The position numbers and the translations under genes are program-made. The notes below the pieces were generated by a model that worked only from the letters and a program-made list of their open reading frames with translations, was not told the DNA's origin and made no database searches. From NCBI RefSeq assembly GCF_964355755.1, contig NC_092672.1, forward strand, positions 7,688,001 through 7,752,000: a stretch of DNA of 64,000 nucleotides. Direction: 5' to 3'. The stretch comes from Antedon mediterranea (Eukaryota > Animalia > Echinodermata). Positions 1 to 57,416 of this stretch are shown here, piece after piece. The first letter of the stretch is position 1. Every line of letters begins with the position of its first letter.

Positions 1-3000
1 AGTCCAGATTGCAAAGTCCATTTTCAACCAGCACCTATGAATTAAAATAATAAAAGAATCAAAGTTATGTGTGCATTTTATCTTTTTCTTAAGCATAAAC
101 AGAACTTGTTAAACTCAAGAAAAATTATTACAAAATAACCTATGACAGTAACCTATAAGACATTTAAACTGTTATCATTTGGAGTATAGGGTGTGGTAAT
201 CAATATCATACAGAACGCGACGAATACTGTGCAAGCCATTGTTAACGCATATTTTTATGTTCGCTAAACAATGTAAATGATACAAGCATAGAATTTTACA
301 CTTCATCGGAAACGTAGTTTTTCCTTGTACATCCAGCCGTCACTCCTACGATTATACTAGGAACTATCCAGCCAAGATAACGGCTAAATAAAAAGCGTCG
401 TTCGTGGTTAGCAAACGGATGTCTGATCTTCATGTACACGTCTGTAGACACAATTAGCATCCATGCAAAGGCGGCTAAGAGACTGTAATGTAAGCAACCA
501 GCAATGGCAGCACATACAATCTGGAAAAAAACGAAGAATAATGAGGAAGACGAAGAAAAGGATGAATATCTTAAACAAAAATAAGGACAGTCGACTCAGA
601 AAAAACAGTAAAGTTTTTTTTATAAATATAATAGTATGCTATATCTAGGAAAATGTACTTTAAGCAAGTTTATGTTCGATACTATGATATCGTCTTCCAG
701 TGCCGCCTTTTGTTTTATTAATATTTACAGTAAATCTGAAAACAGGCTAAATGTGGAAAGGGTTAAAAACGCCAGAGCGGCCGATAACAGTGTTGCCAAA
801 AACACTGAATATATTCTATTTTGAAGAATTCATTAAGGAGAGTATGTTTGGAAGGAGTGATGGCATGCCTTTTATGTAGACATATTCTCAGTACTGTATC
901 TCCGCATAAATATTTGTATGATAATAAATATATATAAGGAATATTGGTAATACAGCATCTAATATGTATCGCATGTTGTGCCTGTATCCTAAAAGGTTAA
1001 GGGTTAGCTTATGTTGTACGATACTAGGAGATACATTTCTAGGATACTGGGCAAATCTAGATACAGTACTGCGAATCGGCTGATGATCACCATATCAACC
1101 AAATTTCCAAAGTACAGTATTTGCAAATAAACAATTATTAACTCTGACAAATTTTATTTTGTATAAAGTCATAATAAAATATTTTTTTAAAATAAAATTT
1201 AAATTAAACTTACCTTATTTTTAACATTCACACCTAGGAAGGCATAGAAGAAATTGACGATAAGTAGAGCAACTACCAGATGACAAAGGATTTTATGGCG
1301 CTCAGAATTTCTTAAGCTTCTAAAATAGTAATAATTTTTAGAATCAATTTTAGAATCCAAACATGATTTTATTTTGTTTTTATTTATTTATTTAGGTTTA
1401 AAAACACATACAAAACAGCAGCCATTGGCTGATAACGTTTGTTTACAATCAATATACATATATAATTAAAAGATTAAAGTTTTATTTGAATTAGGACAGT
1501 GGATGTAAACACAACGTCTACTAACTGTATCAATTAAGAGGCTACATAGAAAACATAGCAGGAAAAAATGTTACTTAAGATTATTTTTCGCATTAATATT
1601 ATTATAATAACAAGTGTTAGTGCAAACTTTGTGTCTTAAACAGTTAAATCATGTTTTGTATTTGATAACTTACTTGAAACTGTATATAGTAATCAGGGTT
1701 ATAATAAGAAACAAACTGGAAATACCAAGTCCAACGTTAGTAATTATTGATAAAGTCTTGTCATTAATATTTGACTATAAAACAGAAAGTAATAATAATA
1801 TAATCAATAAACAAAAAGTAGTCGATTTACTAATTGTTAATTTGATTGACTATTCTAACGTCTTCTTCAGTTAAACAGGTTTTCGACAAAGATTTTCAAG
1901 TACATCATGTTGATTCACTCCAACACCTTAACTTATATCATTGAGGTCTCATTCGTATTCAACACATAGTAAACGCATTCAAGTATGTTTTATAACTGTT
2001 ATTTTTTTGTTGTTTATAAATGTTACATTTATAAACAACAACAAATTAATTTATTTATTTTAATCAGGGAAGATAAGTTCAATCCTTCCTTCCATTTATA
2101 TATATAATTAATCATATTTTACCGGTATCGGTTTCATCAAAACGACAAATGACGTCATATGATTACATCTGCATATCACACCATCAATATGGTAGTTTTC
2201 ATAAAAAGTAGAACAACCTTCTGTTGACCATATCCTTAATAAAAAAGTTATTTAACAAGACCTTTAACAATACTGTACCTGACATTTCAAAAACCATTAA
2301 ACATTTCAAAACAAAGTTATTTTTCGTAAATGTGGTATCAATAAGCAACATTCGTCGTAATAGGAGGCACCACTAGGCGATCAATAGGGGAGCTTTCGAT
2401 TTCCAATGAAAAACGATCTTGACAACCTACATCATGGTAATTCACTGTGCGCATGCGGGGATATTGGGACGTGACTCCTCGCTTCAAACCCTGACATAGT
2501 TTTGATGGTTTCTAGATACAAACGACGATCGACGAAACATCGATTGACCTAACCTAGCCAGGTCGTCACAAATCGCAAGCTACCTAATGTTTAGGTTGGA
2601 TCACGGAAGAGTGAACTGAAGCAACGCATGAGGACGTTGATGTGACGCAAGTAAGCGGCTTATCCGAACTTATCTGTCCCACTTGTCTCTCTTTCATTTA
2701 TCATATTTCTATTAATAAATAACTGCCTATACTTACGGCTCTGAAGAGTCCATATTTTCAGTATAATAACACGCTGGTATATATTTCACATTTGTCGAAT
2801 TTTCATTTGTAATGTTCTTGAAAGACAGATATTATTAATAATAATTATACGTTTATATTATGTTTAAATCTTTTAAAACAACCGTTAGTTGCTTAAAACG
2901 TACCTTAATAACAGGAAACTTAATCTCTAAATTCATACCAACTTCCTCGCCTTTGTCATCATATACGTCGATAGTGACAATGTCAGATGAACTTATCATC

Positions 3001-6000
3001 TCCTCATCGTCCCTTTTATAATCGAAAATAAATTAACATAAGAATTTAATAAAATTATACAGTGTACAGTAAAATGATAATTACAATGGTATGTTTTGTT
3101 TATATGTTTTAGAAACTGCAAAACCCTCCTGACAAATTGGATTTTGTTAGTTCTCTACTTGAGTTATCAAGTTAAAAAAAGTAAAATTATTATTTTTGTT
3201 TTGATCTCTGTATGTGTTTCCACCAGACTGTACTGACATTAATAATGATATAACCGTATTAAAAAAAGTTAATTGTCTATGATGTAATAGTAAATGAATA
3301 AAAGAATGTTTTTAAAATAATAATAATATAAATATTAACTTACTGACTTTCTACGTTGAAATGAGTATCTTCGTCAACAGTTTCCTTTTCTGCAACGATT
3401 GTGTATTTTCCATCTAGACAAAGAGGTGAAATATTTGCAAGGCAAAGAGTGATCAGTGAAAATAAAAGAATTATGTAGAGTGAGAGTATCTCAACATTAT
3501 TCCGCATTGTTGAAGAAGGCAGAGTTGTAGGACTAACCTTTAATAAATGTTATAATTATATCAATTAAAAGGTGGTGGTTAGTGGGTTGTTATAATAAAT
3601 ACTTGCGATAATCAAATGTAATGAATATAACTGAAATGCAAACAACTCTTCTGCCTGTAAACAAACATAAGTCCTGGCAAAGACTTTATAATCGATTAGC
3701 GATAAATACGTAATTACAAATTAATATGCAGATTTCGAAAATACATTGTAATGGTTGTTATTACTAGCTATTAAAAATGTGTAAATCACACCTTCTTCTA
3801 TAGAACTATCTGTTGAAGTTGAGAATGTAATGCTATCTGGTTCCGCTGTTAGAGGAACGTCTTTTACCTCCGGTGATGTAATATTTTTGATAACTAAAAA
3901 AAAACAACAAAATGCAACATGTATTTGTCATGTCATCACTTAAATAATGCTACCCTAGATTTCCAGGTTCATAGTTTTAATAAAGTTAATCATTTGCGTA
4001 GAACAACAAAAAATGTTTTCAAAACAACAAAATAAAAGGTTAAATTCAACCAAAACCCCATTTACTTTTAGTTAAATTATAGGTTTTTTTACAGTATAAT
4101 ATACTAAATAATAATAACTATTATGAGACATTAAAATGGCATATTAAACAAACACATTTTTTTTTCAGGGGGACAATTCATCTTAAACAGTTTCCATATA
4201 ATCATTGGTCAGGCAATTTAAAACGTACTTGTTCTAACAAAAATAACAACAAAACAAAGTACTAATTTACTAAAAATAACATTTAATCAAGATATTTACC
4301 CTTAGTTACCGGGATGTTGGTAGTAGCAGGATTAGTAGTAATGGAATCGGTAGTAGCAGGATTAGTAATGGAATCGGTAGTAGCAGGATTAGTAGTAATG
4401 GAATCGGTACCGGTAGTAGCAGGATTAGTAGTAATGGAATCGGTAGTAGCAGGATTAGTAGTAATGGAATCGGTAGTAGCAGGATTAGTAGTAATGGAAT
4501 CGGTAGTAGCAGGATTAGTAGTAATTGAATCGGTAGTAGCAGGATTAGTAGTAATGGAATCGGTAGTAACATGATGACTAGTGGTGGAATCGGTAGTAGC
4601 AGGATGCGTAGTGGTGGTATCGTTAGTAGCAGGATGCGTAGTGGAGGTATCGGTAGTAGGATTATTCGTAGTAGTATCGACAGTGGTATTGGTAGTAGTA
4701 TCGACAGTGGTATCGGTAGTAGGATTATTCGTAGTAGTATTGGTAGGATTCGTAGTGATATCGGTAGTAGTGGGATTCGTAGTGATATCGGTAGTTGCGG
4801 GATTCGTATCGGTAGTAGCGGGATTCGTAGTGACATCGGTAGTAGCGGGATTCGCGGGATTCGTAGTGATATTGGTAGTAGCAGGATTCGTAGTGATATC
4901 GGTAGTAGTGGGATTCGTAGTAATATCGGTAGTAGCGGAATTCGTAGTGATTTCGGTAGTAACGGGATTCTTAGTGATACCGGTAGTAGCGGGATTCGTA
5001 GAGACATCGGTAGTAGCAGCAGGATTCGTACAGGTAGTTTTTGTGGTAGTGGCAGTATTCGTAGCACTATCTATATTCAGCAGTCATGCATGAAAATTAA
5101 AGAATCAGAAAGTAATAAATACTTGTTAAACCTAAACAAAATTGCTTGTATTTTAACATAAAAGAATAGAAAATCGTTCAAAAATAGTAATATCGACGAT
5201 TATTTAAAGGCATAGTATTAGTAGTACACACTCATCAGAGTCCGCCAGTATAATACATTTCTTACATATAAATTAAAATTTAACAGTAAGTTTGTTTTAA
5301 CCTACCCTTGGACACTTCTATACCAGCAAGGAAACCGCCATACGTTACACTCTCATCGGTAGTAAACCTTATAACCAATGTGTTACTTGAAGACAAAGTG
5401 TCTGGTGGCAAAGTATCATCATTGTATTTGGCAATCGTGTTTCCACCGTCAACTGACAAATAATCATAATGTTTTTCAATATGGAAATCGTAGAATTTTA
5501 GTAACAGCACATTTTCAGGATTTGTACAAAACGTCCAGGTGTAGTTCAGATGATTATCATATTTGTCTGGATAATTTTCTGATGTGATGTTCTTAGACTG
5601 GCTTGGATATAGAAAGTAATCACCGGACCATGTTGTTTGACCTTACAAAAGAAAAACATTTATTCATTAAAACTAATTGCCTAATCCAAACAACTACACA
5701 TTCCCCACCACCACACATAAAACCCCCAAAATGAGCAGTTATTGAAGTGTATACTTGATATAACCTGTTGTATAACAATAAGGATGGGCATATCCGTTTA
5801 AAACAATCGGATTTTTATCGGATTCCTATCAACTATTCAGGTAAGAATTGTTTACTTTACTTTTTTTGATGACAACGAAGAAAGTGTTTTCGCTGATAAA
5901 CCTGACCATGGTAATTTTTTTATATTATTACTTTATAATATTAAAGCCACTGTGGTCGTATAGTTTCTCTAGTTTTACTGATGAGGAGGTGATTGCGTTT

Positions 6001-9000
6001 CGACAGGGAAGTATGAAACTAACGACAACTAAAGATTCGTTACACACGCATCTAATTCATGCTCTAAATTGATCAAAACGTATTTTTAAGCATTTTAAAT
6101 TTTTAACGCGTCACATTGAAAAAACAATTAGGAATAAATTAAAACATTTGAAAGATATTGTAAATTGGTTGTGATCATTGTCATTTAACTTTTTGAGATA
6201 TTTGACACACACAATCTTTACAGAAAGAAATATAGACAATGGTTAGTATTACAGTAGCAATATCGGTAGCAGCAAGATTAGTAATACAGTAGTAGTAGCA
6301 GGATTAGTATCGGTAGTATCAGGATTAGTATAGTAATACGATCAGTAGTAGCATGATTAGTATCGGTAGTATCAGGATTAGTATAGTAATACTCTTAGTA
6401 GTAGCATGATTAGTATCGGTAGTATCAGGATTAGTATAGTAATACTATCAGTAGTAGCATGATTAGTATCGGTAGTATCAGGATTAGTATAGTAATACTA
6501 TCAGTAGTAGCATGATTAGTATCGGTAGTATCAGGATTAGAATATTAATACTATTAGTAGTAGCATGATTAGTATTGGTAGTATCAGGATTCGTATAGTA
6601 ATACTATCAGTAGTAGCATGATTAGTATCGGTAGTATCAGGATTAGTATAGTAATACTATCAGTAGTAGCATGATTAGTATCGGTAGTATCAGGATTAGT
6701 ATAGTAATACGATCAGTAGTAGCATGATTAGTATCGGTAGTATCAGGATTAGTATAGTAATACTATTAGTAGTAGCATGATTAGTATCGGTAGTATCAGG
6801 ATTAGTATAGTAATACTATCAGTAGTAGCATGATTAGTATCGGTAGTATCAGGATTAGTATAGTAATACTATAAGTAGTAGCAGGATTAGTATCAGTAAT
6901 ATCAGGATTAGTATAGTAATACTATCAGTAGTGGCAAAATTAGTATCGGTAGTATCAGGATTAATATAGTAATACTATCAGTTGTAGCATGATTAGTATC
7001 GGTAGTATCAGGATTAGTATAGTAATAATATCAGTAGTAGCAGGATTAGTATCAGTAATATCAGGATTAATATAGTAATACTATCAGTAGTGGAAAAATT
7101 AGTATCGGTAGTATCAGGATTAGTATAGTAATACTATCAGTAGTAGCAGAATTAGTATCGGTTGTATAAGGATTTATAGTATACTAATACTATCAGTAGT
7201 AGCAGAATTAGTATCGGTAGTAATCAGGATTAGTATAGTAGTACTCTAAAGTAGTAGCAGAATTAGTATCGGTAGTATCAGGATTTATAGTATAGTACTA
7301 CTATCAGTTGTAGCAGGATTAGTATCGGTAGTATCGGGATTACTATAGTAATACTATCAGTAGTAGCAGAAATAGTAAATTAATATCCGGCAATATGGTA
7401 ATGTGAAGGGAGCCTCGACCTGCCACTATCTTGTACGACTTATTCATGACCTGTGTTCTGCAGTTGACAAAAATCGCAATATTGGCACAGCCGTACTCAC
7501 GGACTTCACCAAAGCGTTTGATCTTATTGAACATAACATCTTAATTAATAAAATTATCAATATTGGAGTCCGTGGGTCGATCATCCCTTGGATTTACAAT
7601 TTTCTCAGCTGCAGAGAACAGTGTGTCAGGTATAGCAACACTATCTAATTACATCCCTCTTAAAGGTGGTGTCCCCATGAGGACTAAGCTTGGGCCTATA
7701 GGTTTCCAGATTCTGGTGAATGATTCACGACAAAGTACGACTACAAAATATTTGTTTTAGCCTACCCTTGTACACTTCTACACCAGCAAGGAAACCGTCA
7801 AACGTTACACTGTAATCGGTAATAAACCTTATAACCAATGTGTTATTTGAAGACAAAGTGTCTGGTGGCAAATTATAACTATCGTATTTGACAGTCGTGC
7901 TTCCATCGTCAACTGACACATAATCATAGCCTGTTTCAATCTGGAACTTGTAGAATTTTAGTAACAGCACATTTTCAGGATTTGTATGAAACGTCCAGGT
8001 GTAGATCAGATCATTTTCATATTTGTCTGGATAATTTTCTGATGTGATGGTCTTAGACTGGCTTGGATATAGAAAGTACTCACCGGACCATGTTGTTTTA
8101 CCTTACAAAAGAAAAACATTTATTTATTAAAACTAATTGTCTAATCCAAACAACCACAGTTCCCCCACATACACATAAAACTCCCAAAATGAGCAATTAT
8201 TGAAGTGTATACTTGATATAACCTGTTGTATAAAAATGAGGATTTGCATATCCATTTAAAGCAATCGGATTTTTACGATTCCTATCGACTATTCAGGAAA
8301 GAATTCTTTACTCTACTTTTTTGATGACAACGTTGAAAGTTTTTTTCGCTGTAAACCTGACCATGATAATTTTTTATTTTATTACTAAAATCACCCTGGT
8401 CGTATAGTTTATCAGTTTCACTGATGAGGAGGTGGCTGCGTTTCAGAAGAGTTAAATTCGATAAACTAAATATTCGACAACTAACGAAAACTAAATATTC
8501 GTTACACATGATACTGAGAACACGTTCAGCCACGACGTGGTTGTGACAGTGTCAAGAACACTGTGTTCTTCAAAACATTTGTTTCAAGAGACTGAGAACA
8601 CGTTCAGTCATGACGTGGTTGTGACAGTGTCAAGAAGACTGTGTTCTTCAAGATATTTGTTTCAAAAGACTGAGAACACGTTCAGCCATGACGTTGTTGT
8701 GACAGTGTCAAGAACACTGTATTCTTCAGGACATTTGTTTCAAGGGACTGAGAACACGTTCAGCCATGACGTGGTTGTGACAGTGTCAAGAACACTGTGT
8801 TCATCAAGACATTTGTTTCAAGAAACTGAGAACACGTTCAGTCATGACGTGGTGGTGACAGTGTCAATACTGTATTCTTCAGGACATTTGTTTCAAGAGA
8901 CTGAGAACACGTTCAGCCATGAGGTGGTTGTGACAGTGTCAAGAACACTGTATTCTTCAGGACATTTGTTTCAAGAGACTGAGAACACGTTCAGCCATGA

Positions 9001-9493
9001 CGTGGTTGTGACAGTGTCAAGAACACTGTATTCTTCAGGACATTTGTTTCAAGAGACTGAGAACACGTTCAGCCATGACGTGGTTGTGACAGTGTCAAGA
9101 ACACTGTGTTCATCAAGACATTTGTTTCAAGAGACTGAGAACACGTTCAGACATGCCGTGGTTGTGACAGTGTCAAGAACACTGTATTATTCAGGACATT
9201 TGTTTCAAGAGACTGAGAACACGTTCAGCCATGACGTGGTTGTGACAGTGTCAAGAAGACTGTGTTCATCAAGACATTTGTTTCAAGAGACTGAGAATAT
9301 GTTTAGTGACAACTGACAACGCTAAATCACTTGTTGTCAGTTATCAATAACAAACTGAAGGAAGTCCATTTCTGCGTGGTAATGTTAATGCCTGTTAAGA
9401 TAGCTGCTCAATAGATTAGTTGAACTTACCAAAAGAAAAGTAATTTAAGTTGATGACAAAAGACAGAACTGCTTTCAACAAAACACGTTTCAT
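1..9493 (-). CDS. Adhesion GPCR copy 1 (signal-CUB-CUB-Thr-rich mucin-GAIN/GPS-7TM), 3' end off the window
   Basis: Hand-spliced GT-AG exons: 9430-9493 (MKRVLLKAVLSFVINLNYFSF), CUB 7766-8101, CUB 5306-5641, mucin 4300-5070 (open Thr-rich frame), 3792-3893, 2904-3012, 2737-2816, GPS 2123-2234 (WSTEGC...CRCNHMTSFVVLM), TM1 1674-1774, TM2 1214-1319, TM3-4 300-520 (CAAIAGCLHYSLLAAFAWM...GWIVP), 1-34 (CWLKMD). Exons between about 3085 and 3654 could not be resolved cleanly. Confidence 0.85.
6243..7375. repeat. 53-bp minisatellite, about 20 copies
   Basis: Unit TAGTATCGGTAGTATCAGGATTAGTATAGTAATACTATCAGTAGTAGCATGAT; the period is seen at 6308, 6361 and 6414. Confidence 0.9.
7403..7735 (+). mobile_element. 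Non-LTR (CR1/L2-like) reverse transcriptase fragment
   Basis: ST.HYL...DFTKAFDLIEH.IL...WIYNFL..R.Q.V, then a frameshift to GGVPMRTKLGPIGFQILVND. Confidence 0.85.
8510..9310. repeat. 78-bp minisatellite, about 10 copies, aGPCR1 intron 1
   Basis: Unit GAGACTGAGAACACGTTCAGCCATGACGTGGTTGTGACAGTGTCAAGAACACTG... Confidence 0.92.
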
Positions 9494-10710: not shown

Positions 10711-12390
10711 TTTCTTTTCGATCTGGTTGACATAATTTGTTATTGCAGAATTACTAAAACTGTAATACCAATGTATATGTATAGAAATACTGCGATTATT
10801 GCGTACATGTACGGGTATTGATTGATTGAGTGATTATTTGGATCAACCTATATTGGATAATGTACGACAAAGCTTTCAAAACAATGACACGTGACAAGTA
10901 ATACTTGTTTTTAAAAGCATTGCCGGCCGTCAGACGTGATTTATTTTATTAACAATATACTACTGAAAAAATAAATGAAAACTAAGTAATATTAAATATT
11001 AAGTGCAACAAATTATACGTAGATTAATGATTGATTTAAATTAAAATGATTCTGTACAAGGTTTGACCTAACACGTGATCACTTACTATGCAAATAGCGA
11101 TTTAATTAAATGTTTTATGAACTTGCTTACAAGTAATTCTACAAATATTAAAGTAATACAATTAATTAAAAACCAACATTTCAAATCATTGTACAGAAGT
11201 ATAATTGATTACAATTTAAAATTATTATATAGAAAAACATACGATAAACCTAAACTATAATATACTCTAAGACATTTTCTTTGGGAGTTAAACAAAGTAA
11301 AATTTGGTGAAACTAACCGACGTTTCGTGAACACTCGGTTTACATTTTGTGCTGTTCTAATAAAGAAACGCCGACTAACAGTTTCAATATAAAGTATATA
11401 AACATCACAATTTACACAATTATTTTTTTAAAGAAAGTATGCACTCTAACATGGAAATTATATTTATTTAAATTCTGCATAATTGTTGTATAATTGTTAT
11501 AATATTGTATGAGGCAGCGAATGCTGTAATGATATTAAAAGATTTATACACACTTTGCGACCAGAAATCACATTAAATTAATAATTTCATTCATTTTGCC
11601 AAGATAGATCTTAGGTATAACCACACCATATTCAATTGAGAATGAAGTATCTAGTTTAGGCATGGCAACTCAATCTCAAACTTTAAATCTATGTATACAT
11701 TATGTACATATATATGGACATATTGCTTTAATGATAGAATATACTTTTAAAGCATTTTCTTCCTAATTTGAGACTTATAAACACTAAATTCTAATCGGAT
11801 TTTCTTAATCCTCCTCATTAGTTTGTGTTGATTGACATGTAGCTATTTCATATTGATTAGGCATCTGTGATTCCAGGTGGTCTGGTGCGCAGGACATCGT
11901 GGTACTAGGTGTAGGAGTCAAAACGTCGTTAGGTTGTATGGATGTTTCATATAAGTTTTTCTTTGTGTAGATACACGGCTCATACTTGCATGCGGTGTCT
12001 TTTGCTGATTATGTCATTTTATATTCCTAATAGAAAAGAACACAAAAAACAATTTAGTATTTGTAAATGTGTATATTATTCGTTACCGTGCATAAGACAA
12101 AAGTATACTAATAAAAAATAATAGAAACAGATATACATACCATTTCTGCGTTAGACTCCATTTGTAAGTAATCATTTTTCGTCGCATTCTCTAACAAAGT
12201 ATCTAATTCATTGAACAGAATGTCAAAGGTCGGTCGTTTATCAGGAGATTTCTTCCAACATCTCTTCATTATAGAATATCTGTAAAAAAGTAATATATTT
12301 CGTTTTTGAAGAATTTAAGAATGACTAAGTCTACCGTTTAATTCTTTTAATGTAAATAAATAAAACTATGATAACTCAGGTTTTATTTAA

Positions 12391-13133
12391 CAAGGCCATA
12401 TAGATGGCTGCAGTCGCGTGCTCATTAGTGTTTACCGACCGACTGACCAACCTACCAACTGACCGAAATTACTGAACATGTTTAAAAATGTTGAAATATT
12501 TAAAAACATTTATATTTTTTTTAATTTACACGTGCGTAGCCTGTCACATTTGACGTGCTCGTTTAACGTAATTTCGAGTTGAAAAGTAAGTCAAGAAAAC
12601 AGAAATTGGGCAAAAAGAGTGCGCAATAACATTTAACGCGCAGTGCGCGCGCAAAAATTTTGTAAACGCTTAAAATTGCCTGAAACATACTGTTATTTCA
12701 TCGAAAATGAATTTTGAAAATTTTAAGCGCCCGTACGCATGCGTTACATGTGCTACGCACGTAACGTAATTGTATTGCCATATGATGATTTATGCCCTGA
12801 AATTTATGAGTACCAAATTTTATCTAATTGTGATTCATGGTTGTGAAGATATGATTACAAACGTGATTTCGTTAAATCGTGCGTAGATCGCGTAATTTTT
12901 TACTGGGCACCGTGAAAACATAACCACATCGATTCCTGGCCATAAGGAATATACTGTGAAAAATTGACTTAGCTAGATTAAACTGATATCAAGATAAGGT
13001 CAGAAAGTGATAAAACGCATAGTGATACCGGAACGACAGACAGACCGACAGACCGACCGACAGACGGACAGACCGACTGACCGACAGACCGACCGACCGA
13101 CATAGTGAACTATAGAGTCGCGTCCACGCGACT
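12391..13133 (-). mobile_element. Helentron-associated (DINE-1/HINE-like) non-autonomous element
   Basis: Palindrome AGTCGCGTGGACGCGACT, GTCG/GTCT microsatellite, matching subterminal CACGCGACT and a small terminal hairpin. Inserted in a T-run; absent from the paralogue near 40646. Confidence 0.8.
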
Positions 13134-14334
13134 AAAAACATTGAACGAGCTAAATTCTACATCGAATCACAAGTATATTTTTACAAATGGATCAAAATAA
13201 TATTTTGAAATACGTTAAATCATAAATTAAACTCTAATTTTATTTTAAACATATTAAACAAAATATGAGTACATAGGCTACTAATGCTTATAAACAAGTC
13301 ACCTTTTAATTATGTACATACTTTATTTAAACTATTATTTTGTTCCTATATTAAACGCAGTGATAGACACCGATTTAATGTAATTACGTTGCTTACACTT
13401 GGTGGGGGCAGTTGCCTGGCCGTGCCATTCGGTAACCTTGTTGCAGTTTCTTCGGATGCATTTCTATGAGAACATCCGGATATGGAACTTTTCCATAGGT
13501 AAATATTTCGTACAAAACAACACCAAAAGACCACCTGAATTTCACAATAAACAATATTCATTTATAATCACTAAAAAATGAACAAACTTCCTGCTACAAT
13601 TCCCATAAAAACATGGTTTTTCAGTGGTGTGAAATGTGCTTAAAGGTTTTGTGTGTATTTGATGTACGATATTAATATATAGTAATAATACCTGTAGATC
13701 AGATGCTATAATAATACCACGAATTAACCATGGCACTATACATTTAATTTTATAGCTTCATGAAAAAACTTACACGTCACTTTCTGATGACATCCGTTTT
13801 TCAAATATTGTTTCCAAGCTATACCATTTTACGGGTATCTCACCGTCGGATAGTTTGATGTAACCTCTCTCAAATACGTCTTGTCCCAGCCCAAAATCAG
13901 CAACTTTTGCAATCAGTTTTTCTCCAACTAGAATGTTTCTTGCAGCTAAATCACCGTGAACTATTTTGTTTGCAGCGACATAGTCCTAAAAATACAATTG
14001 GAAGCCTTACATTTTTATTATTAAAATAATTATATAATTATGCAAGTAGAAAAATAACTTGTGTTTATATTGTGTTCTTGAGATGTGTAGAATACAAGTA
14101 AGCGTCAAGCTCAGGCGGCGTTTGTAAGGCACTCATGACTCCAATTATATATAAACATTGTTTAATTTACAATATTAAAAATAGCAATAATAAATAACTA
14201 AATTACAAGTACATTACAACATATAAAAATGACATTAACATATTTAAAGCATAAATGATAAAATATTATTTAAAAATTAGGATGACTATAGCGAGGCATT
14301 TAATAAAAAGGCAAATTGCCTTAGAATGTAAAGT

Positions 14335-18260: not shown

Positions 18261-18404
18261 CTGTCTACACTATCAAACTTTATGTGACAACAAATGTGAT
18301 GTGCCTATATATGAATATATCACTACCATATTTGGGCATATCACTACCACATTTGGGCATCATATCACACTTTTTTTGTCCAATTAGTTTGATAGTGTAG
18401 ACAG
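18261..18404. mobile_element. MITE
   Basis: 19-bp TIR CTGTCTACACTATCAAACT / AGTTTGATAGTGTAGACAG. Confidence 0.8.
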
Positions 18405-26400: not shown

Positions 26401-26874
26401 ACAAAGATCTCGTGATAACCTCCAGTAATTATGCAAATAGTGTGATTTAATTAATACATGTATGTATATGACGTTACTACTAATACCGGTAGTTCTACAA
26501 ATATTAAATTAATACAACAGATTAAAAACCGACTATCAAAATAATTTATAAACATATTTATTAATTCATTACAATCTCTAAAAGACGACCTCATTGAATA
26601 CGGTAGTGTTGCACCATTCGACACAAAGCAGTTCTACATGTGTTTTAAAGGTAATCAGAAAAAACAATAATTTTAACACATTAATTTAAAATAAAATACA
26701 CAGCACTATATACAATACATAAACAAATGCAAATGGTTTATGTTGGTGTGGTTTTATCAAAGTTTGCGTCCAGGATCGGTCTTTGTTGGCCCTAATTAGC
26801 CCTGAATGAGGATAGTGAATTACTGAAATATTATGGCTACATTATCTATAAATCACATTATTTAGTCACGTTGC

Positions 26875-46100: not shown

Positions 46101-49100
46101 GGACTAGTAGTCGTAGTATCGGTAGTTACAGGACTAGTAGTCGTAGTATCGGTAGGTGCAGGACTAGTAGTCGTAGTATCGGTAGTTGCAGGACTAGTAG
46201 TCATAGTATCGGTAGTCCCAGGACTAGTAGTCGTAGTATCGGTAGTTGCATGACTAGTAGTCGTAGTATCGGTAGTAGCAGGATTAGTAGTCGTAGTATC
46301 GGTAGTTGCAAGACTAGTAGTCGTAGTATCGGTAGTTGCAGGATTAGCAATCGTAATATCGGTAGTTGCAGGACTAGTAGTCGTAGTATCGGTAGTTGCA
46401 GGACTAGTTGTCGTAGTATCGGTAGTTGCAGGACTAGTAGTCGTAGTATCGGTAGTTGCAGGACTAGTAGTGGTAGTATCGGTAGTAGCAGGACTAGTAG
46501 TCGTAGTATCGGTAGTTACAGGACTAGTAGTCGTGGTATCGGTAGTTGCAGGATTAGTAGTCGTAGTATCGGTAGTTGCAGGACTAGTGATTGTAGTATC
46601 GGTAGTTGCAGGACTAGTAGTCGTAGTATCGCCAGTTGCAGGACTAGTAGTCGTAGTATCGTTAGTTGCAGGACTAGTAGTCGTAGTATCGGTAGTTGGA
46701 GGACTAGTAGTCGTAGTATCGGTAGTTGCAGGACTAGTAGTCGTAGTATCGGTAGTTGCAGGATTAGCAATCGTAGTATCGGTAGTTGCAGGAGTAGTAG
46801 TCGTAGTATCAGTAGTTGCAGACTAGTAGTCGTAGTATCGGTAGTTGCAGGATTAGCAATCGTAGTATCGGTAGTAGTAGGACTAGTAGTCGTAGTATCG
46901 GTAGTTGCAGGACTAGTAGTCGTAGTATCGGTAATTGCACGACTAGTAGTCGTAGTATCGGTAGTTGCAGGACTAGTAGTCGTAGTATCGGTAGTTACCG
47001 GACTAGTAGTCGTAGTATCGGTAGTTGCAGGACTAGTAGTCGTAGTATCGGTAGTTGCAGGAGTAGTAGTCGTAGTATCGATAGTTGCAGGACTAGTAGT
47101 CGTAGTACCGGTTGTTGTTGCAGAACTAGTAGGCCTAGTCGTAGTATCCGTAGTTGCAGGACTAGTAGTCGCAGTATCGGTAGTTGCAGGATTAGGAATC
47201 GTAGTATCGGTAGTAGCAGGACTAGTAGTCGTAATATCGGTAGTTGCAGGACTAGTAGTCGTAGTATCGGTAGTTGCAGGATTAGCAATCGTAGTATCGG
47301 TAGTTGCAGGACTAGTAGTCGTAGTATCAGTAGTTGCAGACTAGTAGTCGTAGTATCGGTAGTTGCAGGATTAGCAATCGTAGTGTCGGTAGTAGCAGGA
47401 ATAGTAGTCGTAGTATCGGTAGTTGCAGGACTAGTAGTCGTAGTATCGGTAATTGCACGACTAGTAGTCGTAGTATCGGTAGTTGCAGGACTATTAGTCG
47501 CAGTATCGGTAGTTACAGGACTAGTAGTCGTAGTATCGGTAAGTTGCAGGACTAGTAGTCGTAGTATCGGTAGTTGCAGGACTAGTAGTCGTAGTATCGG
47601 TAGTTGCAGGACTAGTAGTCGTAGTACCGGTTGTTGTTGCAGGACTAGTAGGCCTAGTCGTAGTATCCGTAGTTGCAGGACTAGTAGTCGCAGTATCGGT
47701 AGTTGCAGGATTAGCAATCGTAGTATCGGTAGTAGCAGGACTAGTAAGCGTATTATCAGTAGTTGCAGGACTAGTAATCGTAGTATCGGTAGTTGCAAGA
47801 TTAGCAATCGTAGTATTGGTAGTTGCAAGACTAGTAGTCGTAGTATCAGTAGTTGCAGACTAGTAGTCGTAGTATCGGTAGTAGCAGGACTAGTAGTCGT
47901 AGTATCGGTAGTAGCACGACTAGTAGTCGTAGTATCGGTAGTTGCAGGACTAGTAGTCGTAGTATCGGTAGTTGCACGACTAGTAGTCGTAGTATCGGTA
48001 GTTGCAGGACTAGTAGTCGTAGTATCGGTAGTTACAGGACTAGTAGTCGTAGTATCGGTAGTTGCAGGACTAGTAGTCGTAGTATCGGTAGTTGCATGAC
48101 TATTAGTTGTAGTATCGGTAGTTGCAGGACTAGTAGTCATTGTACCGGTAGTAGCAGGATTATTACAGTATTCGTAGTATCAGTAAGTATCAAGATTAGT
48201 AGTCGTAGTATCGGTATTAGCAGGACTACTACAGAAGTCATAGTATCCGTAGTAGCAGGATTGGTAGTCGTATCCTTAGTAGCAGGACTAGTAGTCGTAG
48301 TATCGGTAGTAGCAGGATTAGTGGTCGTAGTACCGGTAGTAGCAGGACTAGTAGTCGTAGTACCGGTAGTAGCAGGACTAGTAGTCGTAGTATCGGTAGT
48401 AGCAGGACTAGTAGTCGCAGCATCGGTAAGAAGCAGAACTAGTAGTCGGAGTATTTGTAGTAGCATAGTTGTATTAGCCAGTATCAATAATATTAGTAGT
48501 AATACCGGTAGTCGCAGGATTAGTAGAAGTAGTACCATTAGTGGATATATTAGTTGTAGCGGTACCGGTGGAATATACGACTGTGGTAACTTGTGGACGT
48601 TGAATCGGTGCTTTCACAATATTTTTTTCTGTTTTTTTAATAAAAAGAAGAAAAACACAATATTAGCAGGAATAAAAGTCGTAGTATCGGTAGTAACAGG
48701 ATTAATAGTCGTAGTATCGGTATTTGCAGGACTATTAGTCGTAGTATCGGTAGCAGCAGGATTAGTAGTCGTAGTATCGGTAGTTGCAGTACTAGTAGTC
48801 GTAGTATCGGTAGTTGAAGGACTAGTAGTCATAGTATCGGTAATTGCACGACTAGTAGTCGTAGTATCGGTAGTTGCAGAACTATTAGTCGCAGTATCGG
48901 TAGTTACAGGACTAGTAGTCGTAGTATCGGTAAGTTGCAGGACTAGTAGTCGTAGTATCGGTAGTTGCAGGACTAGTAGTCGTAGTATCGGTAGTTGCAG
49001 GACTAGTAGTCGTAGTACCGGTTGTTGTTGCAGGACTAGTAGGCCTAGTCGTAGTATCCGTAGTTGCAGGACTAGTAGTCGCAGTATCGGTAGTTGCAGG

Positions 49101-52100
49101 ATTAGCAATCGTAGTATCGGTAGTAGCAGGACTAGTAAGCGTATTATCAGTAGTTGCAGGACTAGTAGTCGTAGTATCGGTAGTTGCAAGATTAGCAATC
49201 GTAGTATCGGTAGTTGCAGGACTAGTAGTCGTAGTATCAGTAGTTGCAGACTAGAAGTCGTAGTATCGGTAGTAGCAGGACTAGTAGTCGTAGTATCGGT
49301 AGTAGCACGACTAGTAGTCGTAGTATCGGTAGTTGCAGGACTAGTAGTCGTAGTATCGGTAGTTGCACGACTAGTAGTCGTAGTATCGGTGGTTGCAGGA
49401 CTAGTAGTCGTAGTATCGGTAGTTACAGGACTAGTAGTCGTAGTATCGGTAGTTGCAGGACTAGTAGTCGTAGTATCGGTAGTTGCATGACTATTAGTTG
49501 TAGTATCGGTAGTTGCAGGACTAGTAGTCATTGTACCGGTAGTAGCAGGATTATTACAGTATTCGTAGTATCAGTAAGTATCAAGATTAGTAGTCGTAGT
49601 ATCGGTATTAGCAGGACTATTACAGAAGTCATAGTATCCGTAGTAGCAGGATTGGTAGTCGTATCCTTAGTAGCAGGACTAGTAGTCGTAGTATCGGTAG
49701 TAGCAGGATTAGTGGTCGTAGTACCGGTAGTAGCAGGACTAGTAGTCGTAGTACCGGTAGTAGCAGGACTAGTAGTCGTAGTATCGGTAGTAGCAGGACT
49801 AGTAGTCGCAGCATCGGTAAGAAGCAGAACTAGTAGTCGGAGTATTTGTAGTAGCATAGTTGTATTAGCCAGTATCAATAATATTAGTAGTAATACCGGT
49901 AGTCGCAGGATTAGTAGAAGTAGTACCATTAGTGGATATATTAGTTGTAGCGGTACCGGTGGAATATACGACTGTGGTAACTTGTGGACTTTGAATCGGT
50001 GCTTTCACAATATTTTTTTCTGTTTTTTTAATAAAAAGAAGAAAAACACAATATTAGCAGGAATAAAAGTCGTAGTATCGGTAGTAACAGGATTAATAGT
50101 CGTAGTATCGGTATTTGCAGGACTATTAGTCGTAGTATCGGTAGCAGCAGGATTAGTAGTCGTAGTATCGGTAGTTGCAGGACTAGTAGTCGTAGTATCG
50201 GTAGTTGCAGGACTAGTAGTCGTAGTATCGGTAGTAGCAGGATTTGCAATCGTAGTATCGGTAGTAGTCGGACTAGTAGTCGTACTATCGGTAGTAGCAG
50301 GATTTGCAATCGTAGTATCGGTAGTTGCAGGACTAGTAGTCGTAGTATCGGTAGTGCAGGACTAGTAGTCGTAGTATCGGTAGTGCAGGACTAGTAGTCG
50401 TAGTATCGGTAGTAGCAGGATTTGCAATCGTAGTATCGGTAGTTGCAGGACTAGTAGTCGTAGTATCGGTAGTAGCAGGATTTGCAATCGTAGTATCGGT
50501 AGTTGCAGGACTAGTAGTCGTAGTATCGGTAGTTGCAGGACTAGTAGTCGTAGTATCGGTAGTAGCAGGACTAGTAGTCGTAGTATCGGTAGTGCAGGAC
50601 TAGTAGTCGTAGTATCAGTAGTTGCAGGACTAGTAGTCGTAGTATCGGTAGTGGCAGGACTAGCAGACGTAGTATCGGTAGTAGCAGGACTAGTAGTCAT
50701 AGTATTGGTAGTAGCATGACTACACACTAGTAGTCGTGGCATTGGTAATAGCACAGTTCGCATTAATCAATATTGTCAGTAGTATCAATAATATTAGTAG
50801 TAATACCGGTAGTCGCAGGATTAGTAGAAGTAGTACCAGTAGTTGAAGGATTAGTTGTAGCGGTACCGGTGGAATATACGGCTGTGATAATCTGTGAACT
50901 TTGAATCTGTGCTGTCACAATATTTGTATCTGATTTTTTTTAAATAAAAACAAAGACACAATTAACGATGGCCTACACTCACTGAATGATCGATAGTTCC
51001 TCCGGGGTAAACGGAGTTCATACTGTGTTTTTAAAATAAACTCTCACACTTTCTCCGCAAGGAATTGTCTCACTAAAGATGCTAACCGGTTGTGGGCGAC
51101 TATTTATTAGTATGCATAATATGTTATTTAAATGTGTTTATGTCTTTGTCCTAAAAATTGTCTAAAGGGTGTGTCTGAACTTAATCGTCTGAACTTAATT
51201 AATAGAATGGTGCAAATTCTGCGGGAAAAAGTAAGTTTGGGTTTTCTATGTTTTAGTATATCATAGAATAGCATCTATGCCACTTTTAAATTCTTGCAAA
51301 AAAAAAAATCTGATATGTTTTTATCCTGTACAAATATGTTTTTAAATAAATAAATAAAATGCGAAGAGATGAGGCGCACGGCCAGACTAAAATAGTGAAT
51401 TATCTTCTTTTTTAAGTTTTTAAGTCTTTATTACATTTTTCCCACAAATGTGTATATCTACTGTTCTGCACCCAGCTTTATGAACATACCTTCAACATTT
51501 TCTGCAACAAAAATATCATCAACAGCTATAAATCCATACCTAGTAATTCCGGTAATCTTCACATAATTTCGCAATAAACGATTAGTAAATGCTGCACTTG
51601 CAAATGCCCATCCATATCTAATTGACTTAGAAATGTGAATTAAACGATGGGAAGAGCCTTTGAAATGGTGTGTTACCATTAGTGTTGTATCGCTGTTCAT
51701 GTAATAATTAAACTGAATAGATACACTTTTCCAATTTGTTGGTAAATCTGGACTCTGGATGTATTCGGAAGTATACCTTCCATTAGCTTCAACATAAATA
51801 TAATAATTACCTGAAAAAAATTTTGGTAATAATAAAGCAATGTATATTAAAATTAATATGCATTTTTTAAGAAATTGATATCCGCGTCTGCTTTTGCGAC
51901 CTTCTTGTTAAGTTTCTCAAACTGTCTAAGGTCCTGCTTGATTACTGTACTAGTCAAGGCAAAGTCATTAATGATGTGGCCAAACTTCCGAACAGAAAGT
52001 AAAATTAACACGAATTTGATAACAACATAAAAACTTTTAATGTCAGACATGTTTCGTCGTATTGTTATACAACATCATCAGTGAAGTGAGAGCTATACGC

Positions 52101-55100: not shown

Positions 55101-57416
55101 ATGACACCAACACCTTAGTCTTTTCATTTAAGTTCATTTATTTTGCTTTTTTTTTATAATAATAAATTACGTTTGACATGAAGATGCCGTATAGAAATCT
55201 AGGAACACAGTTTACCAATTTGCACCAGTCATCGAAAATCATATAAATATTTATTTTAACAGCCCCTTACTATCGATACAATTGGCCTGATTTTGTTCAT
55301 TTTTTCTTTTCCATAAGAGCTTATGTCATGCTGTTTAATGACATTATGTATTTACTGCAAGTCCAGTAAATATGGAATATTGGTTTGACCTACCCAGGGG
55401 TAGTAGTACTAGGGGAAGTTGTCATAGGAGTAGCCTAGTTTTCCTATGAGTATGGGTAGTTGTTCTAGGAGGTAGTTGTTCTAGGAGGTAGTTGTTCTAG
55501 GGGGTAGTTGTCCTAGAGGGTAATTGTCCTAGGGGGTAGTTGTCTTAGAGGGTAGTTGTCCTAGGGGGTAGTTGTCCTAGAGGGTAGTTGTCCTAGGGGG
55601 TAGTTGTCCTAGGGGGTAGTTGTCCTTGGGGGTAATTGTCTTAAGAGGGTAGTTTTCCGGATGGTAGTTGTCCCAGCAGGGTAATTGTCCAGGTGGTAAT
55701 TGTCCGGGTGGTAGTTTTCCGGGTGGTAGTTGTCCTAGACCCGATTTACGAATTATATTTTTGGAGAACAAGAAATAAACAAAAATCAAGTAGCCGGATT
55801 CAAATTTTATTCGATGAATCAGATCAGCAATGCCGAAATAATAGATCATCAATAGAATGTGTGTTTGAGCAGTGCGTGCTGAAATAAATGGCCAGTGTGA
55901 ATCAATTATAGGTCGTTGTGATTTTAGCGCTGTTAGTTGAATCAGTGTTGTTTTCAGTGAATTTAACACTACTGACGTTAGTTTTTTACTCACTAGTTGA
56001 GATTAAATGGACAATATGTGAATCAGTATAATAATTGATGTTTTTAGAGCTGTTAAGTTGCTTAGAAGGGAATGAGTGTCCGGTATTTGGATCACTATAA
56101 TTGGTTGTTGTGTTTTACCTCTGCTGGTAAGTCGCGTACTTACTAGTGTAGGTTGAGTACTCAGCATTGATTACATCATTTGACCGTTTCCATACTTTGT
56201 GGAATACTTTGTCTCGTTTACTGCCTCTTTTAAGAAAGGTTGGCACCAGGGTTTGCATACGACTCCATCCATTAAAACCATATTCAAAGTCAGCGCAAAA
56301 GCCTTCTGTTTCTGTTTCTAAATTGAAAGAAGTTAACATGACTAAAATATAAACAAATTAGAATTTCAGAATTGTATTTTAAAAATAAACAGATTTTTCT
56401 TTTTCAGAATCAATATTTATTATCATCATTGTCATCGTTTTCGTTGTCATCACCATTATCATTATCATCTTTATTATTATCACACAATTGAGGTATGTTG
56501 AATTGAATTTGTGCTGTAAGTTTGCTTGAGCCATTTAATCTAATTATATTACACTGAGTTTACAATACACCTCATGTGATCATCATCATCATCATCATCA
56601 TCACCATAAATAATTTCTTTTATAGTAGTATTCGCTTTAGCCTTACCGTTGCCACTGTACGCTTCAATACCAGCAAAGAAACCTCTATGTTGCCCACTGC
56701 TATCGGTAGTAAACGTAAGGTCCAATGTGTTACTTACAGAAGACAAAGTGTCCGGTGGCGTGTACGAGTTGCTGTAGTCGGTATGACGATTATGATCAAT
56801 TACTATTAAAAGGTCATTTGATCGGAGAGAAAAATCGTAAAATTTGAGCAACAGCAAATGTCCTGGATATGTACGAAACTTGTAATCGTAGATCAGATCA
56901 TTAAAATATTTTCTTGGATAATTAGGTGATGATATATTCTTCGAATGGTTTGGACATATGAAGTACTCGTCGGACAATGCCGTTTGCCCTTTATTAAAGT
57001 ATAAAATAAAATGTTTTTATAAAACGAAACAAGCCAAAAACAAACCGTACAAAGATAAAACAATAATAGCGAAGGTGAGCATATTGTTCAAAGCAGTTTA
57101 CGATTAATTCAATTTAACCATAATATGTTATTTATGTCACCGTAATCATTACTTTTCTTGGTTTCATTGATGAGGACGAACCCATCGGCACGAAAAAAGT
57201 TTTAAAAAAACTACAGATTCGATTAAGAACACTTTCATCTATAACGTGGTTGTAACAATGCCAAAAACACTTGTATAAAACAATGTAGAATTAAAGTCCA
57301 TATATATTATGTTTAGATATATAACTGATCAAAACACTAGATATGTACTTACCATCAGAAAAGTAATTTAAGTTGATAACGAAGAACAGAAATGTTTTAA
57401 ACAAAACACTTTTCAT
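40170..57416 (-). CDS. Receptor tyrosine kinase RTK2: signal-CUB-MAM-Thr-rich stalk-TM-kinase (non-RD)
   Basis: Exons: 57353-57416 signal, CUB 56647-56988, MAM 56144-56317 (CADFEYGFNGW) and 51490-51810 (YYIYVE...FNYYM...IAVDDI), stalk exon(s) from 50929, TM 42879-43040 (VLLVGIIVPSVCLAVLIFLAL-RYRNKHR), kinase 42585-42776 (GGGRFG, VAVK), 42278-42459, 41824-41913, 41244-41455 (HGDLAARN, DFG, PVKW), 40920-41057 (WSFGV), 40401-40539 (CW...RPTF), 40170-40286. Stalk splicing is uncertain. Confidence 0.82.
43118..50760. repeat. 30-bp Thr-rich (TTTSPATTDT) minisatellite with higher-order 1906-bp and 1391-bp duplications
   Basis: Unit GCAGGACTAGTAGTCGTAGTATCGGTAGTT. ORF pairs are offset by 1906 (44564/46470, 44910/46816, 45428/47334) and by 1391 (48137/49528, 47853/49244). 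Confidence 0.95.
51853..52120 (-). mobile_element. Penelope-like pLTR / ORF N-terminus remnant
   Basis: ORF MSDIKSFYVVIKFVLI...LRQFEKLNKKVAKADADINFLKN resembles PLE ORF N-termini (from recollection, not searched) and is preceded by a hammerhead motif. Confidence 0.6.
52043..52084 (-). ncRNA. Minimal type I hammerhead ribozyme motif
   Basis: tca-CTGATGA-t-gttgtat(aaca)atacgac-GAAACATGTC-tga: conserved core, 7-bp stem II, palindromic stem III, GUC cleavage triplet, 3-bp stem I. Confidence 0.65.
52856..54283 (-). mobile_element. Non-autonomous Helitron (family B), second copy
   Basis: Inverted homologue of 33830-35191 with TC start, hairpin and CTAG end, between A and T. Confidence 0.88.
54541..55746. 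mobile_element. Foldback-like element with inverted arrays of short repeats
   Basis: Tandem (CTAGGACAACTACCC)n-like units at 54551-54720 and their reverse complement (GGGTAGTTGTCCTAG)n at about 55395-55740. Confidence 0.65.

What the first reader, a model, noticed from the sequence alone, without database searches (positions are those of the whole stretch)
1..57416. Alternating RTK / adhesion-GPCR array in which both receptor classes share one signal-peptide+CUB cassette
Seen: four same-strand genes in the order RTK2, aGPCR2, RTK1(pseudo), aGPCR1. Each begins with a homologous 64-nt phase-1 signal exon (xxxVLxxxxLxxVINLNYFSx; 57353, 37522, 25071, 9430) and a 336-342-nt phase-1 CUB exon (GQT..S.EYF..P..S.NI.S.NYP...LLLKF...PPDTLS..NT....F.TD.S....GF). 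The intact genes also have a related ATTDT-type Thr-rich stalk, and flanking non-coding DNA is homologous. Downstream, the cassette joins either GAIN-7TM or MAM-TM-tyrosine kinase. Established: aGPCRs and RTKs are unrelated families, and symmetric phase-1 exons are the classic shuffling units. Inference: a lineage-specific paired-receptor system in which a diversifying CUB sensor feeds G-protein or phosphotyrosine outputs, possibly in immunity or allorecognition. I do not recognise it as described.
Basis: partly seen in the sequence, partly recalled or inferred. Interest (0 to 1): 0.9.

Follow-up and report, generated by a model that had tools for sequence, protein, structure and literature searches.

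The report
Receptor kinase borrowed a GPCR's ectodomain
In a feather-star gene cluster, the signalling half of an unrelated receptor-kinase gene sits behind the same kind of signal-peptide, CUB and MAM exons that neighbouring adhesion-GPCR genes carry, likely forming a young hybrid receptor; the joining splice is unproven and one of the two copies is broken.

Summary
The four same-strand genes, four homologous 64-nt signal exons and five phase-1 CUB exons are real. The five CUBs form one clade with Antedon cluster paralogs (bootstrap 100), sister to a crinoid CUB-MAM-ZP protein. The direction of transfer can be traced. The TM-kinase half, introns included, is a recent copy of a conserved YWTD-EGF receptor kinase recorded on another chromosome-size sequence, and it sits behind the 5' half of a CUB/MAM-aGPCR paralog. 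The kinase stayed under purifying selection (omega 0.21). A spliced kinase contig of this type occurs in a related organism. Corrections: RTK2's 'stalk' is a frame-broken 7.6-kb minisatellite, its linking splice sites are weak and its tail has an early stop. RTK1 is a pseudogene. The alternation most likely comes from one tandem duplication. RTK and aGPCR CUBs are only about 50% identical. No RNA here shows CUB joined to kinase or to 7TM. aGPCR CUBs show suggestive diversification. Verdict: a probable young chimeric receptor gene, not a demonstrated paired immune system. The scan had no related earlier finding.

The parts
57353..57416 (-). RTK2 signal-peptide exon (64 nt, phase 0-1)
56647..56988 (-). 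RTK2 CUB exon (342 nt, phase 1-1); lacks the Glu that the aGPCR CUBs keep at the recalled Ca-binding position
56144..56317 (-). RTK2 MAM exon 1 (174 nt; 16-aa insertion against P0001)
51490..51810 (-). RTK2 MAM exon 2 (321 nt)
50867..50929 (-). Possible short RTK2 stalk exon (weak donor; inferred)
43117..50722 (-). 30-bp Thr-type minisatellite, 252 copies, about 25 frame switches; decayed stalk, not an open exon; the inferred fusion point lies at its 3' end
42879..43040 (-). RTK2 transmembrane exon; first part homologous to the YWTD-EGF RTK P0012; weak acceptor
40401..42776 (-). RTK2 kinase exons K1-K6 (42776-42585, 42459-42278, 41913-41824, 41455-41244, 41057-40920, 40539-40401)
40074..40286 (-). 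RTK2 last exon with in-frame TAG after 38 codons (tail about 32 aa shorter than the ancestral frame)
37522..37585 (-). aGPCR2 signal exon
36381..36716 (-). aGPCR2 CUB exon (identical to the CUB of RefSeq model XP_071944562, which calls it a separate gene)
35414..36151 (-). aGPCR2 Thr-rich stalk exon (738 nt, open, phase 1-1)
30981..33621 (-). aGPCR2 short GAIN-like region in five exons ending in GPS (H-M|T) and tethered-agonist sequence
26875..30632 (-). aGPCR2 7TM and tail exons (match RefSeq model XP_071944113)
25135..26575 (-). Upstream block shared with the other genes; encodes the first 20 residues of cluster paralog P0001 at 20 of 20
25071..25134 (-). RTK1 signal exon, start codon lost
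23762..24023 (-). RTK1 CUB exon, 5' part, with a stop codon
19161..23761 (.). PIF/Harbinger transposon (DDE_Tnp_4, terminal inverted repeats, TAA duplication) inside the RTK1 CUB
19081..19160 (-). RTK1 CUB exon, 3' part
17920..18536 (-). RTK1 MAM exon 1 (18536-18417) and remnant of MAM exon 2
11805..13985 (-). RTK1 kinase exons K4-K6 and last exon (stop at codon 6 of the last exon)
9430..9493 (-). aGPCR1 signal exon
7766..8101 (-). aGPCR1 CUB-a exon
6279..7368 (-). 53-bp intronic minisatellite related to the Thr stalk (decayed first stalk, inferred)
5306..5641 (-). aGPCR1 CUB-b exon
4300..5070 (-). aGPCR1 Thr-rich stalk exon (771 nt, open)
1..3893 (-). aGPCR1 GAIN-like and 7TM exons to the window edge; 98-99% identical to aGPCR2 including introns

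Best explanation
A DNA copy of the transmembrane-to-tail half of a conserved crinoid YWTD-EGF receptor kinase lies behind the signal, CUB and MAM exons of a tandem CUB/MAM adhesion-GPCR cluster, and likely formed a young hybrid receptor kinase that would read ligands with the cluster's CUB-MAM module. Shown: two unrelated sources for the two halves, retained kinase introns, one CUB clade, purifying selection on the kinase after duplication, and a spliced kinase contig of this type in a related organism. Inferred: the kinase half replaced the GAIN-7TM half of one cluster member at its stalk. A later unequal crossover then duplicated the block 'kinase + aGPCR' and put the second kinase behind another paralog's 5' half (RTK1), which produced the alternation. 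RTK1 then decayed, and RTK2 may be decaying in this assembly. Inferred function: CUB (and MAM) bind extracellular proteins at the tip of a mucin-like stalk and signal either by tethered-agonist G-protein activation or by kinase dimerisation. The ligand class is open: immune or non-self recognition about 0.35, gamete or egg-coat recognition about 0.25, matrix or adhesion about 0.4.
For: The nearest kinase is P0012 (XP_071947329, YWTD-EGF ectodomain, on a 36.2-Mb record; the cluster models are on a 39.0-Mb record), 66 of 69 residues identical in K4; its Anneissia ortholog P0013 has 60 of 69. Homology to P0012 starts at the TM exon and none was found upstream. A parent-type spliced contig skips the same five introns. 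Cluster models carry the same modules on aGPCRs: P0010 MAM-CUB-stalk-GPS-7TM, P0011 CUB-stalk-GPS-7TM, P0001 CUB-MAM-CUB. The CUB clade has UFBoot 100 and its sister is P0156 CUB-MAM-CUB-MAM-ZP at 92. RTK2 changed 10 of 210 conserved kinase positions against 24 of 83 in TM and tail (p 5.5e-8). RTK1 vs RTK2 kinase: 13 synonymous and 11 non-synonymous differences, omega 0.21, p 2e-4. RTK1 and RTK2 ectodomains differ at dS 0.5-0.8 but their kinases at 0.14, and the RTK1 CUB groups with P0011 and P0001 at 93. A spliced K4-K5 contig in run X10 (organism B) differs from RTK2 at 9 of 350 bases and has the window-copy letter at 12 of 12 diagnostic places.
Against: No transcript links ectodomain and kinase. 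RTK2's linking donor scores 2.1 (19% of random GT sites score as high) and its acceptor -0.2 (36% of random AG sites); only 3 of 34 model donors and 1 of 34 model acceptors score as low. The stalk is frame-broken and the tail has an early stop. No protein model of RTK2 or RTK1 appeared among 6 hits of 86 candidates. RefSeq models split aGPCR2 into a lone CUB (P0072) and a lone 7TM (P0009). The two RTK2-identical contigs listed for run X5 (depth 3.4 and 5.3) show no splice joint. The X10 contig covers kinase exons only, so it could belong to a kinase-only transcript or to another copy.
Confidence: 0.66

Rival explanations
1. A kinase fragment landed in the stalk of a cluster gene and broke it. 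The CUB-MAM exons and the kinase exons are adjacent but never made one protein; the kinase is transcribed as a truncated or membrane-less product, or is decaying.
For: Weak linking splice sites, a destroyed stalk exon, an early stop in the tail, no protein model of RTK2 and no RNA joint. Novel architectures inferred from gene prediction alone can be errors (PMC4967905, abstract).
Against: Kinase exons were under purifying selection after the local duplication. About 27 non-synonymous differences are expected if one copy were neutral, and 11 are seen. RTK2's signal, CUB, MAM and TM exons are all open and phase-compatible, giving a 731-codon frame. No other signal exon of this family lies in front of the TM exon.
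Confidence: 0.2
2. One reading: a maintained paired-receptor system in which RTK and aGPCR partners share a diversifying CUB sensor and are co-used in immunity or allorecognition.
For: Linkage, a common CUB clade and shared upstream DNA. aGPCR CUB omega is 1.6-9 by counting, omega = 1 is rejected at p about 0.003, and variable sites are enriched in the recalled ligand loops (16 of 31 vs 20 of 80, p 0.012) while the recalled Ca-binding residues are kept.
Against: Neighbouring RTK and aGPCR CUBs are only 49-64% identical. RTK1 is dead. Other cluster models have no annotated kinase partner. One duplication explains the alternation. The non-synonymous rate of CUB-a vs CUB-b (32 of 263) is not above the flanking intron rate (34 of 342, p 0.43). 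There are no expression data by tissue.
Confidence: 0.1
3. The RTK2 defects and the long repeat are assembly artefacts, and RTK2 is an intact CUB-MAM-mucin RTK.
For: Long tandem repeats are often mis-assembled (general knowledge). Organism B contigs show gaps in the last-exon region.
Against: The same 1-nt frame shifts recur in duplicated sub-blocks of the repeat. A related frame-breaking minisatellite lies in an aGPCR1 intron. DNA contigs of run X1 match the laid RTK2 stretch with no differences in the eight pieces listed, although X1 may be the source sample.
Confidence: 0.04

Closest known systems
Crinoid YWTD-EGF receptor tyrosine kinase (Antedon XP_071947329; Anneissia XP_033104226, 'LRP4-like')
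   Same: TM exon, kinase and tail are its recent duplicate: 84-98% identity in five of the six kinase exons (73% in K3), same intron positions.
   Different: The ectodomain is CUB-MAM rather than YWTD propeller-EGF, and the locus lies on another chromosome-size record.
Anneissia CUB-MAM-CUB-MAM-ZP membrane protein (XP_033121899)
   Same: Closest outside relative of the CUB and MAM modules.
   Different: It ends in a ZP domain and a single TM, with no GAIN-7TM or kinase.
ADGRG6/GPR126 and other adhesion GPCRs (ADGRL3 and ADGRD1 are the nearest solved relatives)
   Same: Secretin-like 7TM, GPS and tethered-agonist sequence. ADGRG6 also has an N-terminal CUB (PMC13197933, passages).
   Different: No pentraxin or hormone-receptor domain was detected, the stalk is mucin-like, and only about 155-165 residues lie between stalk and TM1 against about 320 for a full GAIN (PMC3321182, listing).
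EXTK tyrosine-kinase expansions of amphioxus and other invertebrates (D'Aniello et al. 2008)
   Same: Lineage-specific RTK duplication (PMC3342872, passage). Varied ectodomains gained by shuffling is recalled, not read.
   Different: Here donor and recipient are both identifiable and recent, and the recipient is an aGPCR cluster. The primary paper was not held.
Vertebrate paired immune receptors (KIR, LILR, Siglec pairs; recalled)
   Same: Clustered genes, related ectodomains on different signalling parts, exchange between paralogs.
   Different: Those pairs have near-identical ectodomains within one protein family and opposing outputs. Here the outputs are from unrelated families, the CUBs are about 50% identical, and no opposition is shown.

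Membership tests
Adhesion GPCR (aGPCR1, aGPCR2) | Secretin-like 7TM | tested here: met
   Pfam 7tm_2 on two exons; paralog P0011 best matches ADGRL3 and ADGRD1
Adhesion GPCR (aGPCR1, aGPCR2) | GPS cleavage triad and tethered agonist before TM1 | tested here: met
   Pfam GPS E 2e-7; H-M|T followed by a T-x-F-x-x-L-M segment
Adhesion GPCR (aGPCR1, aGPCR2) | Two-subdomain GAIN (2-6 helices plus 12-14 strands; PMC11697300 passages) | tested here: inconclusive
   Only about 155-165 aa available; the model of P0011 had pLDDT 34; the atlas was unreachable
Adhesion GPCR (aGPCR1, aGPCR2) | Adhesion domain on the same polypeptide as the 7TM | tested here: inconclusive
   Open GT-AG models without internal stop (about 830 codons for aGPCR2; 814 to the window edge for aGPCR1); paralog models P0010 and P0011 agree; RefSeq splits aGPCR2; no RNA joint seen
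Adhesion GPCR (aGPCR1, aGPCR2) | Autoproteolysis and G-protein signalling | not testable with these tools
   needs expression and assay
Receptor tyrosine kinase (RTK2) | Tyrosine-kinase domain with catalytic motifs | tested here: met
   Pfam PK_Tyr_Ser-Thr on four exons; Gly loop, VAVK lysine, alpha-C glutamate, HGDLAARN and DFG present
Receptor tyrosine kinase (RTK2) | Signal peptide, ectodomain, one TM and kinase in one transcript | tested here: inconclusive
   A 731-codon frame exists only through weak splice sites around the minisatellite; no RNA joint
Receptor tyrosine kinase (RTK2) | Ligand-induced tyrosine phosphorylation | not testable with these tools
   needs assay
Chimeric gene formed at DNA level | Halves traceable to two unrelated parent genes | tested here: met
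Chimeric gene formed at DNA level | Donor introns retained (not a retrocopy) | tested here: met
   a parent-type spliced contig skips the same five introns
Chimeric gene formed at DNA level | Selective constraint after formation | tested here: met
   (kinase part only)
Chimeric gene formed at DNA level | Fused transcript | tested here: inconclusive
   only kinase-internal joints seen
Paired immune receptors (features recalled) | Near-identical ectodomains on the two partners | tested here: not met
   RTK vs aGPCR CUB identity 49-64%, dS 0.70-0.80
Paired immune receptors (features recalled) | Genomic clustering | tested here: met
Paired immune receptors (features recalled) | Same ligand, same cells, opposing outputs | not testable with these tools
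   no tissue or ligand data
EXTK kinases | Kinase-domain phylogeny with the EXTK clade | not tested
   no named EXTK sequences were held

The most novel reading that the evidence does not exclude
Feather stars keep a recombining receptor cluster in which one fast-evolving CUB/MAM recognition module, taken from a ZP-type coat protein family, is wired to both G-protein (GAIN-7TM) and phosphotyrosine outputs. Unequal crossover swaps ectodomains onto the captured kinase, so new ligand specificities are tried on both signalling routes.
Probability: 0.3. Interest if true: 0.75.

Novelty: new variant of a known kind. Interest (0 to 1): 0.55.

Why it matters
RTKs and adhesion GPCRs are assumed to have drawn their ectodomains from a shared pool of modules, but the events are usually too old to trace. 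Here donor, recipient, junction region and the later duplication are all still readable, and the transferred kinase shows selection. This would be a dated, testable case of a natural ectodomain swap between the two main receptor classes. It also offers aGPCRs with an unusually short GAIN region and fast-changing CUB loops. If the joint transcript is not found, it reduces to an ordinary insertion into a tandem cluster.

Tried and rejected
No whole genome is held, so a genome-wide CUB tree was not possible. The tree used the 5 window CUBs and the 46 best-scoring of 1,330 domain hits in 165 fetched proteins (at most two per protein; P0072 dropped as identical to the aGPCR2 CUB). No listed run is on record as RNA; X5 and X10 are read as RNA only because their contigs skip introns. 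X5 and X10 had no cover on the TM exon, which is no evidence either way. The structure model of P0011 was unusable (pLDDT 34), so no fold search was run. The atlas did not answer. An extra GAIN exon and an extra loop exon in aGPCR2 were considered and dropped because paralog models splice past them. An in-frame, signal-like stretch before the second GAIN exon was read as a polypyrimidine tract. A retrocopy origin of the kinase was rejected because the introns are kept. Earlier-finding look-ups gave nothing relevant. Literature searches found no description; D'Aniello 2008 was not held.


Full report
1. Observation. The window is animal DNA (34% GC). Two RefSeq models named Antedon mediterranea match its exons almost letter for letter: P0009 the aGPCR2 7TM and P0072 the aGPCR2 CUB. 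Four minus-strand genes lie in the order RTK2, aGPCR2, RTK1, aGPCR1. Each starts with a 64-nt exon ending in a phase-1 GT donor at 57353, 37522, 25071 or 9430. These match the aGPCR2 exon at 52-58 of 64 bases, while no other stretch on either strand reaches 38. Five CUB exons are phase 1-1 and Pfam CUB.

2. Gene models. aGPCR2 reads as signal, CUB, 738-nt Thr stalk, five GAIN-like exons, GPS (H-M|T), 7TM and tail, about 830 codons without an internal stop. aGPCR1 has two CUBs and is open for 814 codons to the window edge. Their GAIN-7TM DNA is 98-99% identical including introns, while their 5' halves differ by about 10%. RTK1 is a pseudogene: start codon lost, stop in the CUB, a 4,601-bp PIF/Harbinger element in the CUB, MAM2 cut, TM to K3 not found, stop in the last exon. 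RTK2 is not clearly intact. Its supposed stalk is a 30-bp minisatellite of 252 copies with about 25 frame switches and a stop after 54 codons. A 731-codon frame exists if this repeat is intronic. The needed donor and acceptor score 2.1 and -0.2 on matrices built from 34 model sites each; 19% and 36% of random sites score as well. The last exon has an early TAG.

3. Where the parts came from. The K4 exon found 6 hits among 86 candidates. The best is P0012, an Antedon RTK with a YWTD-EGF ectodomain on a different chromosome-size record, with the Anneissia ortholog P0013 next. RTK2 is closer to P0012 than to P0013 in every kinase exon (for example 66 vs 60 of 69 residues in K4), so the copy likely postdates the split of the two genera. 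Homology begins at the TM exon, and nothing upstream matches. A parent-type contig in run X5 (89 of 898 bases different) skips the same five introns, so the copy was made at DNA level. The ectodomain modules belong to the local cluster. RefSeq models XP_071944558 (MAM-CUB-stalk-GPS-7TM)..559 (CUB-stalk-GPS-7TM) and ..561 (CUB-MAM-CUB) lie on the same record as the aGPCR2 models. MAM is thus shared with aGPCRs too. In a tree of 51 CUBs, the five window CUBs and four cluster CUBs form one clade (UFBoot 100), sister to the CUBs of an Anneissia CUB-MAM-CUB-MAM-ZP protein (92). This is not a genome-wide tree.

4. How the alternation arose (inferred). From the RTK kinase through the aGPCR stalk, the two units differ by roughly 3-26%, mostly about 10%. 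The two RTK ectodomains differ far more (dS 0.5-0.8, against 0.14 for their kinases). The RTK1 CUB groups with P0011 and P0001 rather than with RTK2. The DNA upstream of RTK1 encodes the first 20 residues of P0001 at 20 of 20, against 11 of 20 upstream of the aGPCRs. The simplest reading is one unequal crossover that duplicated 'kinase + aGPCR' and set the second kinase behind another paralog's 5' half. The shared unit includes about 1.4 kb of upstream DNA, so this is capture of a half gene rather than movement of one symmetric exon.

5. Was the hybrid functional? On the RTK2 branch, 10 of 210 conserved kinase positions changed against 24 of 83 in TM and tail (p 5.5e-8). RTK1 vs RTK2 kinase exons show 13 synonymous and 11 non-synonymous differences (omega 0.21, p 2e-4); about 27 non-synonymous differences are expected if even one copy had been neutral throughout. 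In run X10 (organism B; RNA inferred from skipped introns), a spliced K4-K5 contig differs from RTK2 at 9 of 350 bases and carries the window-copy letter at 12 of 12 listed places where both window copies differ from the parent type (the difference table was cut to its best-supported rows). Run X6 of organism B holds RTK2-like DNA over the start of the TM exon. Against this, no contig links ectodomain and kinase, the RTK2-identical pieces in X5 show no joint, no protein model of RTK2 was found, and RefSeq splits aGPCR2 in two. I put current full-length function of RTK2 in this assembly near 0.4, and past function of a CUB-MAM-kinase hybrid near 0.7.

6. Is the CUB diversifying? Among the three aGPCR CUBs, counting gives omega 1.69, 1.63 and 9.2 (1 synonymous vs 32 non-synonymous differences between CUB-a and CUB-b), and a codon model rejects omega = 1 (p about 0.003; the fitted value was not printed). 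Variable sites are enriched in the four loops recalled as the ligand face (16 of 31 vs 20 of 80, p 0.012), while the recalled Ca-binding residues are kept (alignment to cubilin). However, the non-synonymous rate does not exceed the flanking intron rate (p 0.43), so the signal is suggestive only.

7. Mechanism. Most likely, a CUB (with or without MAM) module on a mucin-like stalk binds an extracellular protein. In the aGPCRs this would expose the tethered agonist; in the hybrid it would dimerise the kinase (established mechanisms of the two families, not tested here). The ligand is unknown. The ZP-type relative, and the use of CUB repeats in the sea-urchin egg receptor EBR1 (PMC13672419, abstract), make gamete or coat recognition a live alternative to immunity.

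8. Comparison with what is known. CUB-bearing aGPCRs are known (ADGRG6; PMC13197933, passages). Lineage-specific RTK expansions are known (EXTK; PMC3342872, passage). GPCR-kinase fusions on one chain exist in choanoflagellates and sponges (PMC12716839, passages) but are a different thing. GAIN normally has a helical and a strand subdomain (PMC11697300, passages); here only about 155-165 residues are available and the fold could not be resolved. Five searches of the held library found no report of an RTK and aGPCR sharing a recent ectodomain, nor of this cluster; subscription journals are largely missing from that library. Novel architectures from gene prediction alone can be false (PMC4967905, abstract), which is why the missing joint matters.

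9. Verdict. A real, traceable and probably once or still functional chimeric receptor kinase inside an adhesion-GPCR cluster: a new variant of a known kind. The paired immune-receptor system is not shown. Interest 0.55.

Noticed in passing
window 19161-23761: 4,601-bp PIF/Harbinger transposon with terminal inverted repeats and TAA target duplication; its transposase frame has a stop near the end.
   Followed up: yes
window 30981-33621 and 2123-3893: The GAIN-like region is only about 155-165 residues, also in paralogs P0010 and P0011; it may lack the helical subdomain A.
   Followed up: partly
window 1-4114 vs 28962-33841: aGPCR 3' halves are 98-99% identical including introns while their 5' halves differ by about 10%, suggesting recent gene conversion or crossover that spares the CUB.
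   Followed up: partly
window 6279-7368: 53-bp intronic minisatellite derived from the Thr-stalk repeat; stalk exons in this cluster decay into minisatellites at least twice.
   Followed up: partly
window 41824-41913: Run X1 shows three K3-type contigs although the window has one K3 and one parent gene is known; there may be a further kinase copy or allele elsewhere.
   Followed up: no
window 33829-35201 and 52846-54284: The same interspersed repeat, inverted, sits in introns of aGPCR2 and RTK2.
   Followed up: no
window 14481-16563 and 31290-32291: GIY-YIG (Penelope-like) retroelement remains, partly shared in inverted orientation.
   Followed up: no
window 59978-60256 and 63299-64000: Plus-strand open frames, the second with a hydrophobic segment and predicted coiled coil; no Pfam family above cut-off.
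   Followed up: no
P0012 / P0013: A conserved crinoid RTK with a YWTD-propeller/EGF (LRP-like) ectodomain, annotated only as 'uncharacterized' or 'LRP4-like'; itself an unusual architecture.
   Followed up: partly
window CUB exons: aGPCR1, aGPCR2 and RTK2 CUBs lack the cysteine pair that the RTK1, P0001 (first CUB) and P0011 CUBs keep.
   Followed up: no
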